Shown here piece by piece: positions 5,886 through 8,956 of a stretch of 13,652 bases of DNA. Location of the stretch: the NCBI GenBank assembly GCA_040289575.1, contig PSLL01000006.1, positions 113,764-127,415 on the forward strand, read 5' to 3'. Position numbers and translations under genes: made by a program. Position 1 is the stretch's first letter. Each line of letters opens with the position of its first letter. Under the pieces are notes generated by a model that saw only the letters and a list, made by a program, of their open reading frames with translations, had not been told where the DNA came from and made no database searches. The stretch comes from Candidatus Dadabacteria bacterium. Its GTDB lineage: Bacteria > Desulfobacterota_D > UBA1144 > Nemesobacterales > CSP1-2.

Positions 5886-6881
5886 TCAATTCACCCTCTC
5901 AACGGAAACGCTCAGAGCCTGTGGACCGGGAATTGACGTTGTAATCGTTCCCAGTGACGCACCCATATTTATCCTCCTTACGGGAAGGGTAATAGTGGAC
6001 GGATTAATCTTCTGACCCGGAAGTGACTCGAATGTGAATTTGAGCTTAGCGTCATCTGGAAGACCGAATACCTCGGCCGTGATGGAAGCCGATTTTCCGG
6101 TGCCCGTGTCCGGTATAACGATGTTATAGCCCCAGGCTTTTAAATCTGCATCGAGAACGCTGCCCCCGGGTTTTTTAAGACTTATTCGAACTGCCCCCTC
6201 TTTGCCTACCACAGTAGAGGGCAAATCGTGAAATTTTAATGCGACCTCATTCCTTCTTACAGCAATTATGTCACCTTTTATAAGCCTATTTTCTTTAGCG
6301 TCACGAATACCCACCTCAAAACCCCCGGGTCGGGGGATTTCTACAGGCGGCATAACGAGCGTAGCATTAAGAACGCCGAAACTAATTATGATGTCGTCAA
6401 GAGGCTGCAGTTTATCGGATTTAATAGACGGCTTTTGCTTAGGTAAAGAGACCTTTAGACTGCCCCTCTGCCCTGTAGCGATAAGGGATTCAGCATCGGA
6501 TTCGGATTGAGAAACGATAACCCTCTCCCATCCATCATCTGTTTCCCTAACATCTACAACCGGATTATCTCTCGGGGGGCCGCCTTTAGGAAAGATTCTT
6601 ATGGTTGTAATTTTCCCTGTATACTGGGGATTAACAAAGAATTCTCCAACTATTGAGCTAAATTCCACTTCATTGTACACCGGAGCCTCTGAATGAATCC
6701 CTTCCTCTTTCTGAACCTCCTTTTCCTCAGCCTTTGATATTCGCTTATTGTATTGCCCCTCTTTCCCTAATAATTCGGCTCGAACTTGATGCGACAGACC
6801 ATGGGCCGAAATGAAGATTGAAAAGAAGGCACCAACGAGGATATGTACAAATAACGTATCTAGTCCAATCCTCTCTTCCAT
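5886..6881 (-). CDS. Hypothetical protein with N-terminal signal peptide or membrane anchor
   Basis: 331-aa ORF with SD-like GGAGGG upstream. Hydrophobic N-terminus (LFVHILVGAFFSIFISAHG...VRA), then a charged linker and beta-strand-like, Pro/Gly-rich sequence. No family recognised. Confidence 0.75.
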   Translation of the reverse strand: MEERIGLDTLFVHILVGAFFSIFISAHGLSHQVRAELLGKEGQYNKRISKAEEKEVQKEEGIHSEAPVYNEVEFSSIVGEFFVNPQYTGKITTIRIFPKGGPPRDNPVVDVRETDDGWERVIVSQSESDAESLIATGQRGSLKVSLPKQKPSIKSDKLQPLDDIIISFGVLNATLVMPPVEIPRPGGFEVGIRDAKENRLIKGDIIAVRRNEVALKFHDLPSTVVGKEGAVRISLKKPGGSVLDADLKAWGYNIVIPDTGTGKSASITAEVFGLPDDAKLKFTFESLPGQKINPSTITLPVRRINMGASLGTITTSIPGPQALSVSVERVN

Positions 6882-7113: not shown

Positions 7114-8436
7114 ATGGTAAGAGCATCCAAAGCATCTCAAAATTCCGAAGATAATAAAAAGGAAGTAGGGGTCGAGTCTCAACAATTCCTCAATTTAAAT
7201 GAACTAAGAAATAGAAAGCCTACGGAACTGATGAGGATGGCAAGAGACCTAAACATTGAAGACACGTCTCGCATGTCGAAACAGGATCTTATATATGCAA
7301 TCCTGCGAGCACAAAGCGAGAAAGAAGGCATTATTTATGCCGAGGGGGTGCTTGAAATACTCTCGGAAGGCTACGGATTTTTAAGGTCTCCCAAGTACAG
7401 CTATCTTCCTGGACCGGATGATATATATGTCTCCAAATCTCAGATACGCTCATTTAATCTTAAAACTGGCGACACAACTGGCGGCCAGGTTCGGCTTCCA
7501 AGGGAAGGAGAAAAGAATCTTGCACTCCTTAAAATCGAACACGTAAACTACGATACGCCTGAATTCTGTAGAGACCGTGTGCCCTTTGAAAGCCTTATCC
7601 CGCTTCATCCTGAAGAGAAGATTCATCTTGAATACGACCCGAATGATTTTTGCACAAGGGTAATGGATCTATTTATTCCCGTTGGAAAAGGACAAAGAGC
7701 ACTAATTGTTGCACCGCCAAGAACCGGTAAGACCATTCTTCTTCAAAGAATTGCGAATGCAATAACTAAAAACCATCACGAGATAGTCCTTATAGTGCTC
7801 CTAATTGACGAGCGCCCTGAAGAAGTAACGGATATGGAAAGGTCTGTAAAAGGAGAGGTTGTAAGCTCTACATTTGATGAGCCGCCGCAGCGTCATATAC
7901 AGGTATCCGATATGGTTCTTGAAAAAGCAAAGAGGCTTGTAGAGCATGGAAAAGACGTGGTTATTCTACTCGACAGCCTTACAAGGCTTGCACGCGCAAG
8001 TAACACAGTAACCCCTGCAAGCGGAAGGGTTCTCTCCGGAGGAATTGAAGCAAATGCACTCCAAAGGCCAAAGAGATTCTTCGGTGCCGCAAGGAACACT
8101 GAAGAAGGCGGAAGCCTGACGATAATTGCCACTGCGCTGATTGATACTGGAAGCAGGATGGATGAGGTAATATTTGAGGAGTTCAAGGGCACAGGAAATA
8201 TGGAGGTCTATCTCGACAGAAAACTTGCGGATAAGAGAACATTCCCCGCAATAGACCTTCATCGTTCGGGAACAAGAAAAGAAGAGCTTCTATTACCTGA
8301 AGACGTTCTAAACAGGGTATGGCTTCTGCGCAAGATCCTAAGCCCTATGAGTACAATAGAAGCAATGGAATTCCTCTTAGAAAAGATGAGAGGAACAAAG
8401 TCAAATAAAGAGTTCCTTAATTCAATGAATCAGTAG
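7114..8436 (+). CDS. rho: Transcription termination factor Rho
   Basis: 440 aa with [38 protein letters not shown] (P-loop), [42 protein letters not shown] and SGTRKEELL. Confidence 0.99.
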
Positions 8437-8481: not shown

Positions 8482-8528
8482 AAAAAGCCTGCTGTTCCAA
8501 GCGAGAGGATAAAACAGCAGGCTTTTTT
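8482..8528. terminator. Bidirectional intrinsic terminator between rho and the convergent small ORF
   Basis: Perfect 15-bp inverted repeat AAAAAGCCTGCTGTT (8482-8496) / AACAGCAGGCTTTTT (8513-8527) with a 16-nt loop. It gives a U-tract on both strands. Confidence 0.8.
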
Positions 8529-8568
8529 ACCTCTAAAGAATTGGAGAGGCAAAAAGGCGAATTAAGGT

Positions 8569-8649
8569 CTATTTCTTCTTAGTTCCACCCTTTTTGCTTC
8601 CTCCCTTCTTGCTACCGGACTTTTTGGTAGCTTTCTTCTTAGTTGCCAT
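8569..8649 (-). CDS. Small lysine-rich basic protein, 26 aa (MATKKKATKKSGSKKGGSKKGGTKKK)
   Basis: Not in the ORF track. ATG at 8649, TAG at 8571-8569. SD AAGGAGGTGA at 8667-8658 with 8-nt spacing. 12 of 26 residues are Lys. Followed by the bidirectional terminator. Confidence 0.75.
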   Translation of the reverse strand: MATKKKATKKSGSKKGGSKKGGTKKK

Positions 8650-8687
8650 CTATCGCCTCACCTCCTTGTTAGAAAGTATACTAAAAC

Positions 8688-8725
8688 AAAAAAAATCCCT
8701 CGTCTTCGTTGCCAAAAACGAGGGA
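8688..8725 (-). terminator. Intrinsic terminator/attenuator upstream of the small Lys-rich ORF
   Basis: Minus strand UCCCUCGUUUUUG-GCAA-CGAAGACGAGGGA is a 13-bp stem with two G-U pairs and a GNRA tetraloop, followed directly by U8. Confidence 0.8.
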
Positions 8726-8777
8726 GAATCCTTTGCCTTCTCAGTAATCTTAATCTTCATTATCAGATTCTATTAAG

Positions 8778-8806
8778 ACTCTAATTTGTTTTAAAAAGTT
8801 TGTCAA
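8778..8806 (-). promoter_or_regulatory. Putative sigma70 promoter for the leader/small-ORF transcript
   Basis: Minus strand TTGACA (8806-8801), 17 nt, TAGAGT (8783-8778), with AT-rich upstream sequence. Confidence 0.6.
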
Positions 8807-8956
8807 GTGTTTTTCACATTTTTCTACATAATGTTGTGCATGGTGATTTTTTATACACCAAATACTGTGAGTCTAATTTTAAATAATGATTTATCAGTCA
8901 GAACAATAATGGATTGAGGCTCAGAGTAGAAGTCAAATTCTTAGATTTTAACAGAT

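What the first reader, a model, noticed from the sequence alone, without database searches (positions are those of the whole stretch)
8569..8667. Unannotated 26-aa Lys-rich micro-protein convergent with rho
Seen: ORF MATKKKATKKSGSKKGGSKKGGTKKK has 12 Lys and no acidic, aromatic or large aliphatic residues. It is built from xxxKK units and bracketed by TKKK at both ends (the DNA TTTCTTCTTAGTT occurs twice). It has a 10-nt SD (AAGGAGGTGA) at 8-nt spacing and a downstream terminator, and is below normal gene-calling thresholds. Known: short Lys/Ala-rich repeats occur in histone H1-like nucleoid proteins (Chlamydia Hc1/Hc2, AlgP and HupB tails), and very small basic proteins occur in ribosomes (bTHX, bS22, eL41). 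Inference: this may be an undescribed minimal polycation that binds DNA, RNA, ribosomes or polyphosphate.
Basis: partly seen in the sequence, partly recalled or inferred. Interest (0 to 1): 0.75.

Follow-up and report, generated by a model that had tools for sequence, protein, structure and literature searches.

The report
Tiny lysine-rich histone-like gene
The 26-codon lysine-rich reading frame is a real, conserved gene that gene callers miss, and it is a drastically shortened version of a bacterial histone-H1-like protein, so it most likely makes a very small positively charged peptide that coats nucleic acids.

Summary
The frame at 8649..8569 (-) encodes MATKKKATKKSGSKKGGSKKGGTKKK, with a perfect 10-nt SD 8 nt upstream and a terminator shared with rho.

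It is a real gene:
- Nine other genomes of the same family (record titles: Candidatus Dadabacteria and other labels) keep the SD, ATG and frame. Lengths are 19-43 aa and every length difference is whole codons.
- Differences by codon position are 141/150/416, and pN/pS is 0.03-0.51.
- Metatranscriptome contigs from three studies cover relatives' copies.
- None of 8 versions is in a 15-billion protein collection.

The unit is self-contained: conserved upstream box, near-consensus promoter, terminator-like leader hairpin, ORF, 3' stem and terminator.

In a sister family with ~1-Mb genomes, the same slot (suf genes upstream, rho convergent) holds a 119-164 aa Lys-rich repeat protein. One copy passes Pfam HC2, the chlamydial histone H1-like family. 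The micro-gene is therefore a shrunken ortholog of an H1/Hc2-like polycation.

DNA/RNA binding is inferred, not shown. A ribosomal, polyphosphate or leader-peptide role is less likely.

This scan has noted similar hidden oligolysine genes on other DNA. I class this as a new variant of a known kind.

The parts
8826..8859 (-). Conserved upstream box, about -55 to -88 from the predicted start. It reads GGTGTATAAAAAATCACCA (8859-8841) followed by a short palindrome ACATTATGT (8834-8826). Probably a regulator binding site.
   Evidence: It is nearly invariant in 10 of 10 family copies although the gene upstream differs. It is single copy in the genome at up to 3 mismatches. No binding protein was identified.
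8778..8806 (-). Sigma-70-type promoter: TTGACA (8806-8801), 17 nt, TAGAGT (8783-8778). An A-rich stretch lies upstream. The predicted start is near 8771.
   Evidence: The scan scores it 10 of 12. CTTGAC and the -10 T-A-x-A-G/T-T are kept in 10 of 10 family copies, and CTTGAC-17-TAAAGT/TACAGT is also found before the long sister-family genes.
8683..8740 (-). Leader hairpin that looks like an intrinsic terminator. The stem is 8725-8713 / 8708-8696, the loop is GCAA, and the T run is 8695-8688. An A-rich tract upstream can pair with the T run.
   Evidence: One search reports 13 pairs followed by T8. A hairpin folds in 10 of 10 copies, with 62-nt segments at -16.7 to -28.0 kcal/mol. The consensus fold has 12 pairs, mostly invariant, only 1 with a change on both sides, and a covariation term of +0.42, i.e. 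none.
8658..8667 (-). Shine-Dalgarno AAGGAGGTGA, 8 nt before the ATG.
   Evidence: It is invariant in 10 of 10 family copies. It is one of 17 such 10-mers in the genome.
8569..8649 (-). Micro-gene of 26 codons plus TAG, encoding a Lys-rich peptide built of xxxKK pentamers.
   Evidence: coding signature. (not in the protein collection). (RNA contigs of relatives cover it).
8543..8604 (-). 3' stem that encloses the stop codon. An SD-like GGAGG with GCAAAAAGG inside the ORF (8604-8589) pairs with CCTTTTTGCCTCTCC in the 3' UTR (8557-8543).
   Evidence: AARGGAGG is invariant at the DNA level in 10 of 10 ORFs. The pairing appears in the MFE fold of 10 of 10 copies. Z-scores against shuffles are modest, -0.1 to -4.0, and 4 of 10 are at or below -2. 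The 3' UTR pairs better with the internal site than with the true SD in 10 of 10.
8482..8528 (.). Two-way intrinsic terminator shared with rho: A run, stem GCCTGCTGTT...AACAGCAGGC, T run.
   Evidence: It is conserved in 10 of 10 copies.
7114..8436 (+). rho, convergent with the micro-gene. It is the fixed downstream neighbour.
   Evidence: Pfam Rho_N, Rho_RNA_bind and ATP-synt_ab. rho is convergent downstream in all 9 other family loci and in 7 sister-family genomes.

Best explanation
The locus is a self-contained, single-copy transcription unit of about 290 nt. It encodes a 26-residue, +12 polycation, probably 25 residues after removal of Met before Ala.

The gene is the shrunken ortholog of a histone H1/Hc2-like Lys-rich repeat protein that sits in the same suf...rho slot in a sister family. 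It retains four or five xxxKK pentamers of that protein.

Inferred mechanism. The disordered, flexible peptide binds the phosphate backbone of DNA, and possibly RNA, without sequence specificity. It neutralises charge and helps compact or shield the nucleoid. It acts in bulk like an H1 tail, Hc2 or a protamine rather than as a folded protein.

Inferred control. Output appears to be set at several levels:
- a near-consensus promoter with a conserved upstream operator-like box;
- a terminator-like hairpin in the leader that must be read through;
- a very strong SD;
- a 3' stem in which an SD-like GGAGG inside the ORF holds a CCUCC element of the 3' UTR that could otherwise mask the true SD.

What is shown and what is inferred. 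Shown: the gene is real, is under purifying selection, is present in RNA libraries, and is syntenic with HC2-like genes. Inferred: the binding partner and every regulatory step.
For: Gene reality.
- SD, ATG and a Lys-rich frame are kept in 10 of 10 family copies, with lengths of 19-43 aa, and all CDS lengths are multiples of three.
- Differences by codon position are 141/150/416. pN/pS is 0.03-0.51 over 36 pairs. The five close, unambiguous pairs give 0.15, 0.09, 0.18, 0.51 and 0.16.
- Five of 5 metagenome contigs chosen only by hairpin plus SD carry the ORF, one of them with a new in-frame 3-nt deletion.
- No antisense frame has a conserved start.

Expression.
- Metatranscriptome contigs from 3 studies cover relatives' copies.
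- One 226-nt contig runs from 8754 through the leader hairpin and the ORF to about 8532.

Orthology with H1/Hc2-like proteins.
- In the sister family f9, a 119-164 aa Lys-rich repeat gene lies convergent with rho in 7 genomes (G101, G102, G103, G106, G107, G110, G117).
- sufBD, with or without a Rieske gene, lies directly upstream of it, as in this window.
- It has a similar start (MAVAKK..PAAKK against MAATKKAPAKK) and the same promoter type, CTTGAC-17-TAAAGT.
- The 164-aa copy scores 42.3 bits on Pfam HC2, whose cut-off is 40.

Precedent. Hc2 is described as a DNA-binding protein whose size varies with the number of Lys-rich pentamers (PMC2848022, abstract seen in a search listing).
Against: - No binding was tested.
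- The micro-proteins match no Pfam or NCBIfam model: 0 families for the 26-, 37- and 43-aa forms at E<=1, apart from one 12.6-bit non-hit.
- A profile of the micro-proteins finds nothing in 1.84 billion representative proteins.
- Low-complexity similarity cannot prove homology, so orthology rests on synteny.
- Ten representatives of families f2-f8, which lie between the two groups, have no Lys-rich gene at rho. Common descent therefore needs several losses.
- Within the family the gene was not found in 5 of 15 genomes, so it is dispensable.
- The genome has three HU/IHF-type genes that could cover nucleoid needs.
- The RNA evidence consists of assembled contigs of relatives. The tool warns that these do not prove transcription and cannot show ends.
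Confidence: 0.6

Rival explanations
1. It is a ribosome- or RNA-associated micro-protein, a very small basic subunit or RNA chaperone in the manner of bTHX, bS22, eL41 or the Fur-regulated basic proteins of Bacillus.
For: It is very basic and has a promoter with an A-rich upstream element and one of the 17 strongest SDs in the genome. The leader carries a half-site resembling the recalled Fur-box consensus, and the gene sits next to the suf operon.
Against: Length varies from 19 to 43 aa by gain and loss of pentamers, with no fixed residues beyond K and G. It was not found in 5 of 15 genomes of the family. The syntenic long forms are H1/Hc2-like, not ribosomal. The Fur-like match has 3 mismatches, and 274 sites in the genome match equally well.
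Confidence: 0.12
2. The unit is mainly a regulatory RNA. The promoter makes a short RNA that ends at the leader terminator, or a purine-rich RNA that pairs with CU-rich targets. The ORF is incidental or a decaying remnant of the long gene.
For: A strong terminator-like hairpin lies between the promoter and the ORF and is more conserved than the coding sequence. GGAGG and CCUCC elements are conserved at the nucleotide level.
Against: The 60 nt between the start and the hairpin, which would be the body of such an RNA, are the least conserved part. The ORF shows a clear coding signature and only in-frame length changes. One RNA contig bridges hairpin and ORF. No Rfam family matches; the best hit is 24 bits against cut-offs of 55-100.
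Confidence: 0.1
3. It is a polyphosphate- or other polyanion-granule protein, like AlgP of Pseudomonas.
For: AlgP is a histone H1-like protein tied to the spacing of polyphosphate granules (PMC9239181, abstract seen in a search listing). Any polycation will bind polyphosphate.
Against: No PPK1 (PF02503) or PPK2 (PF03976) was found in this 95%-complete assembly.
Confidence: 0.05
4. It is a lysine-sensing leader peptide, or a type I toxin or secreted cationic peptide.
For: It is a short ORF rich in one amino acid with structured RNA around it.
Against: A terminator follows and the next gene is convergent, so there is nothing downstream to regulate. There is no hydrophobic stretch or signal peptide. 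No conserved antisense gene or promoter was seen.
Confidence: 0.02

Closest known systems
Chlamydial histone H1-like protein Hc2 (HctB; Pfam PF07382, NCBIfam NF038052)
   Same: It is built of Lys-rich pentamers with small residues (A, T, S, G, P) between the lysines. Size varies by repeat number (PMC2848022, abstract). The syntenic 164-aa sister-family protein passes the Pfam HC2 cut-off.
   Different: It is 19-43 aa, against 165-237 aa as given in that abstract. The micro form scores on no model. It is richer in Gly and Ser. It comes from a free-living uncultured lineage with no developmental cycle known. Its regulation differs: a leader terminator and a 3' stem.
Other bacterial H1-like proteins and tails: NF038053 (Burkholderia-type H1-like protein), AlgP, the DdbA N-terminal domain, and Lys-rich tails on HU, DksA and RsfS
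   Same: They have the same low-complexity K/A/P/T composition. The long sister-family forms score weakly on NF038053, at 23.7 and 33.4 bits against a cut-off of 80. Database relatives of the long form include such tails fused to DksA, RsfS and HU.
   Different: Those are 100-270 aa, or are tails attached to folded domains. Here the tail fragment stands alone as the whole gene product.
Tail-only linker histones and protamine-like polycations of eukaryotes (recalled, not tested here)
   Same: These are disordered, highly basic polypeptides that act by charge neutralisation.
   Different: They are unrelated by descent, longer, and Arg-rich in the case of protamines.
Hidden oligolysine micro-genes noted earlier in this scan (Nitrospirales, Patescibacteria, Omnitrophota, DPANN archaea)
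   Same: They are unannotated Lys-rich ORFs of 10-40 codons with their own promoter, a structured leader and a terminator, and are conserved within a clade.
   Different: They are on different DNA and in different lineages, with no sequence or synteny link tested. Here both flanks tie the micro-gene to a full-length HC2-like ortholog.

Membership tests
Pfam PF07382 HC2 (histone H1-like nucleoprotein) | Scores above the family's gathering cut-off (40 bits) | tested here: not met
   The 26-, 37- and 43-aa micro forms match 0 families at E<=1. The syntenic long forms score 42.3 bits (164 aa, over the cut-off) and 26.9 bits (119 aa, under it).
Pfam PF07382 HC2 (histone H1-like nucleoprotein) | Made of tandem Lys-rich pentamers | tested here: met
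   The peptide reads ATKK-SGSKK-GGSKK-GGTKK-K. K5, K6, K10, K15, G16 and K19 are invariant over 9 orthologs.
Pfam PF07382 HC2 (histone H1-like nucleoprotein) | Binds and condenses DNA | not testable with these tools
   This needs a peptide or expression assay.
NCBIfam NF038052 / NF038053 (histone H1-like DNA-binding proteins) | Scores above the curated cut-offs (135 and 80 bits) | tested here: not met
   The micro forms have no hit. The long forms score at most 51.1 and 33.4 bits.
Very small basic ribosomal proteins (bTHX, bS22 and similar) | Fixed length and conserved residues, and present throughout the lineage | tested here: not met
   Lengths are 19-43 aa. The gene was found in 10 of 15 genomes of the family and not at rho in the other 5.
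Amino-acid-sensing leader peptide (attenuation) | A regulated gene follows on the same strand | tested here: not met
   A terminator follows, then convergent rho.
Fur-regulated small basic proteins (Bacillus Fbp type) | Fur box at the promoter | tested here: inconclusive
   The leader motif has 3 mismatches to the recalled 7-1-7 consensus, and 274 genome sites match equally well. Only the left half-site is conserved.

The most novel reading that the evidence does not exclude
Ultra-short oligolysine peptides may be a widespread class of genetically encoded bulk counter-ions for nucleic acids in uncultured bacteria and archaea, invisible to gene callers. This locus shows how they could arise, by repeat loss from full-length H1/Hc2-like genes (164 aa down to 19 aa at one syntenic site). 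It also suggests the dose is controlled by the mRNA itself through a read-through leader terminator and a competition between SD, decoy SD and anti-SD that could limit translation per transcript.
Probability: 0.25. Interest if true: 0.8.

Novelty: new variant of a known kind. Interest (0 to 1): 0.6.

Why it matters
- It shows that a conserved, selected and probably highly expressed gene can lie far below gene-calling thresholds. None of 8 versions is in a 15-billion protein collection.
- It gives a natural lower limit, 19-26 residues, for a histone-H1-tail-like polycation that selection still maintains. That is directly testable with synthetic peptides.
- The syntenic series from 164 aa to 19 aa is a clean example of a repeat protein shrinking to a micro-protein.
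- If such genes are common, as other notes of this scan suggest, inventories of nucleoid proteins in uncultured phyla are systematically incomplete.

Tried and rejected
- **Protein searches with the peptide.** The 43-aa ortholog gave 1 candidate and no scored hit. A profile of 9 micro-proteins found 0 of 1.84 billion representatives. In six-frame search it re-found only 4 of 120 genomes and missed G000 itself. These searches are therefore blind to this kind of sequence and say nothing about absence.
- **Rfam.** Six matches at E<=1, all far below the gathering scores. Rejected.
- **Leader peptide across the hairpin.** An upstream ATG is present in 9 of 10 copies, but it lies in different frames and the peptides are not conserved. 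Rejected.
- **Fur box in the leader.** Not significant.
- **Regulon search.** The upstream box, promoter and hairpin are single copy in the genome, so no co-regulated genes were found.
- **Antisense hydrophobic ORF at 8594-8776 (+).** No conserved start, and it is closed early in several relatives. Rejected.
- **RNA depth and contig ends.** Cover lies only within 8532-8754, and several contigs end near the hairpins. The runs were found through this very stretch, the contigs come from relatives with different neighbours, and the tool states that contigs cannot show ends or levels. I draw no conclusion from the uncovered flanks, the depth or the ends.
- **Covariation in the leader hairpin.** Only 1 of 12 pairs changes on both sides. 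The structure is supported by conservation and folding, not by covariation.
- **Paper searches.** I saw listings and abstract starts only. None describes Lys-rich micro-genes or H1-like genes in Dadabacteria. I opened no paper, so text or supplements that I did not see could hold such a report.

Full report
**What is there**

On the minus strand, an ATG at 8649 opens a 26-codon frame that ends with TAG at 8571-8569. The peptide is MATKKKATKKSGSKKGGSKKGGTKKK.
- It has 12 Lys and otherwise only G, S, T, A and the initial M.
- The 10-nt SD AAGGAGGTGA (8667-8658) lies 8 nt upstream. The genome holds only 17 copies of this 10-mer.
None of 200 shuffles reached two matches.
- An A-run/stem/T-run terminator (8528-8482) separates the ORF from convergent rho at 7114-8436.
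- Among ATG frames of 10-61 aa with an SD-like site, this is the most Lys-rich in the 3.06-Mb assembly. Nothing else there resembles it.

**It is a gene**

A DNA search of 41 related genomes, followed by a strict SD-ATGGC pattern search over all 120 genomes held for the phylum, found the unit in G000 and 9 of the 14 other genomes of its family f1.
- The other 6 places that matched the pattern are unrelated genes.
- All ten copies keep the SD, the ATG and a Lys-rich frame. Lengths are 19, 20, 20, 26, 27, 27, 27, 32, 37 and 43 aa, and every coding length is a multiple of three.
- Over 36 pairs, differences fall 141/150/416 on codon positions 1/2/3, and pN/pS is 0.03-0.51.
- Protein-guided alignment of such repetitive sequence can flatter these figures. 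The five close pairs, whose alignment is unambiguous, still give 0.15, 0.09, 0.18, 0.51 and 0.16. One serine codon, for example, is TCC, TCA or TCG in different genomes.
- In a test blind to the ORF, I picked metagenome contigs by the leader hairpin and the SD alone. Five of 5 carried the ORF, one with a further in-frame 3-nt deletion.
- Antisense frames have no conserved start.
- None of 8 exact versions is in a collection of about 15 billion predicted proteins, so gene callers have missed it throughout.

**Expression**

Three metatranscriptome runs from three studies (two soil, one groundwater) hold contigs of relatives' copies at 80-90% likeness.
- One 226-nt contig runs from 8754 through the leader hairpin and the whole ORF to about 8532.
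- Others cover 8708-8573 and 8694-8532.
- This fits a short monocistronic mRNA that reads through the leader hairpin.
- The tool warns that contigs in RNA libraries do not prove transcription and cannot show ends. I count this as supportive only.

**Anatomy of the unit (all on the minus strand)**

The conserved block begins about 100 nt upstream of the promoter, whatever gene lies upstream. That gene is a Rieske gene here, a sufS paralog in two genera, a FAD-oxidase-like gene in two, and a divergent transglycosylase-like gene in one. The block contains, in order:
- a nearly invariant box, GGTGTATAAnAAATCACCA, plus a short palindrome (8859-8826);
- an A-rich stretch;
- TTGACA, 17 nt, TAGAGT/TAAAGT (8806-8778);
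- about 60 poorly conserved nucleotides;
- a 13-bp hairpin with a GCAA loop followed by eight T (8725-8688), flanked by an A tract;
- about 20 nt, then the SD and the ORF.

The hairpin folds in 10 of 10 copies. It is supported by conservation rather than covariation, since only 1 of 12 pairs changes on both sides. All of these elements are single copy in the genome. No Rfam family matches.

Because no room for a second promoter is left between the T run and the SD, the ORF must be transcribed through a terminator-like structure. I read this as a built-in attenuator. The signal that would relieve it is unknown.

**A second RNA feature**

The DNA words AARGGAGG, which encode K-G-G inside the ORF, are invariant in 10 of 10 copies even at synonymous positions.
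- In all ten MFE folds this SD-like site pairs with a CCUCC-containing stretch of the 3' UTR, enclosing the stop codon.
- The adjoining pairs differ between clades: GCAAAAAGG/CCTTTTTGC here, GGGAGGT/ACCTCCC in one genus, AAGGAGGAAGT/ACTTCCTCCTT in another.
- Z-scores against shuffles are modest, -0.1 to -4.0, and 4 of 10 are at or below -2.
- The same 3' UTR element could also pair with the true SD, but less stably, in 10 of 10.
- A switch between the two pairings is an idea, not a finding.

**What it descends from**

Five family genomes lack the unit: sufS or another gene abuts rho directly. Ten representatives of families f2-f9 were then checked at rho, and only the f9 genome showed a Lys-rich convergent gene.

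Following f9, a sister family in the same class with genomes of about 1 Mb:
- A Lys-rich repeat gene lies convergent with rho in 7 genomes. It is complete at 119, 160 and 164 aa in three of them, cut by contig ends in three (G101, G102, G106) and interrupted by an N gap in one (G117).
- In four more genomes the gene sits at a contig end, as expected if assemblies break in the repeat.
- Its upstream neighbours are sufBD, with or without a Rieske gene. That is the same suf operon that precedes the micro-gene in this window.
- It begins MAVAKK..PAAKK, compared with MAATKKAPAKK in a family copy.
- It has the same promoter type, CTTGAC-17-TAAAGT, but no leader hairpin or upstream box.
- The 164-aa protein scores 42.3 bits on Pfam HC2 (cut-off 40) and the 119-aa protein 26.9. 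NCBIfam H1-like models score below their cut-offs.

With both flanks shared, I regard the micro-gene as the ortholog of an H1/Hc2-like gene that has lost most of its pentamer repeats. The weak point is that families between the two groups lack a gene at this site, so several losses must be assumed. Some of them have H1-like genes elsewhere. PF07382 rings in 22 of 120 genomes, only 2 of them over the cut-off. One family genome without the micro-gene has a 108-aa H1-like gene on another contig.

**Function**

Hc2 is described as a DNA-binding protein whose size varies with the number of Lys-rich pentamers (PMC2848022; abstract seen in the listing). The peptide here is four to five such pentamers. 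By composition and descent, the most likely action is non-specific electrostatic binding to DNA, and possibly RNA.

Against the other partners:
- Ribosomal role: the variable length and the patchy presence argue against it.
- Polyphosphate role: no PPK1 or PPK2 was found in this 95%-complete assembly.
- The genome also has three HU/IHF-type genes, so the peptide is an accessory factor, in line with its loss in some relatives.

Lys codons are AAG 79 to AAA 41 in the ten ORFs, against about 1:1 in long ORFs of the genome. This keeps A runs short. I did not test it statistically.

**Lineage**

Eight of the 20 public records that matched the promoter pattern carry the unit.
- Three are titled Candidatus Dadabacteria.
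- The others carry various submitter labels: Ignavibacteriales, Deltaproteobacteria, Spirochaetia (two), and Bacterium HR37.
- The genome tool places all of them in one family, so I use the Dadabacteria name with that caveat.

**Novelty**

The class of bacterial H1-like Lys-rich proteins is known. A conserved, selected 19-43 aa form with its own regulatory RNA architecture did not turn up in five literature searches. I saw listings and abstract starts only.

Earlier notes of this same scan describe similar hidden oligolysine genes in Nitrospirales, Patescibacteria, Omnitrophota and DPANN archaea. These are unchecked AI notes and I did not test them. They suggest the phenomenon is general, which lowers the surprise of this single case and raises the value of the class. 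What this locus adds is the two-flank synteny that ties a micro form to a full-length HC2-like gene.

Noticed in passing
window 8633-8667 as laid in run X16: Groundwater RNA contigs with mean depth up to about 709 share only the SD, the ATG and the first codons with the window. They continue into G+C-rich sequence. Read from the loose-end consensus, that sequence would give a Lys-rich frame of about 15 codons. This may be another organism's highly expressed oligolysine micro-gene.
   Followed up: no
window 8851-8859 (-), and the same columns in L004, L005 and L007: The most conserved part of the upstream box is, on the other strand, a 9-mer one base away from the DnaA-box consensus as I recall it. 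It matches that consensus fully in three relatives. At one mismatch in 100 nt this is not significant by itself.
   Followed up: partly
L042, L043, L050 (G012, G009, G077): A conserved 47-aa Cys-rich small protein (MAL.EGEVY.CPD..CGCEITV.KGAAPG.GGD.APRCCCGKEM) lies behind the same perfect SD. It looks like a small metal-binding protein.
   Followed up: no
L088:1513-1836 (G006): A family genome that lacks the micro-gene at rho has a 108-aa Lys/Arg-rich H1-like gene on another contig. This may be a replacement.
   Followed up: no
L072, L078, L079, L085, L087, L089, L097 and L075: In the ~1-Mb sister family, contigs often end, or carry an N gap, inside the Lys-rich repeat gene. This gene is therefore a recurrent assembly break and is probably under-counted.
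   Followed up: partly
proteins P0003, P0009, P0056 and others: Database relatives of the long form are mostly HC2-like tails fused to DksA, the ribosome silencing factor RsfS, or HU/IHF. The same Lys-rich module is widely attached to nucleic-acid-related proteins.
   Followed up: no
window 5886-6881 (-): A 331-aa ORF between the yebC/ruvCAB block and rho has no Pfam family at E<=0.001.
   Followed up: no
window 8760-8650 (-): A 36-codon frame starts at a conserved ATAATG in the leader, runs through the hairpin, and stops at the TAG directly before the micro-gene's ATG. The ATG is kept in 9 of 10 copies, but the frame and the peptide are not. A stop codon abutting or overlapping the micro-gene's ATG is seen in 9 of 10 copies.
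   Followed up: partly
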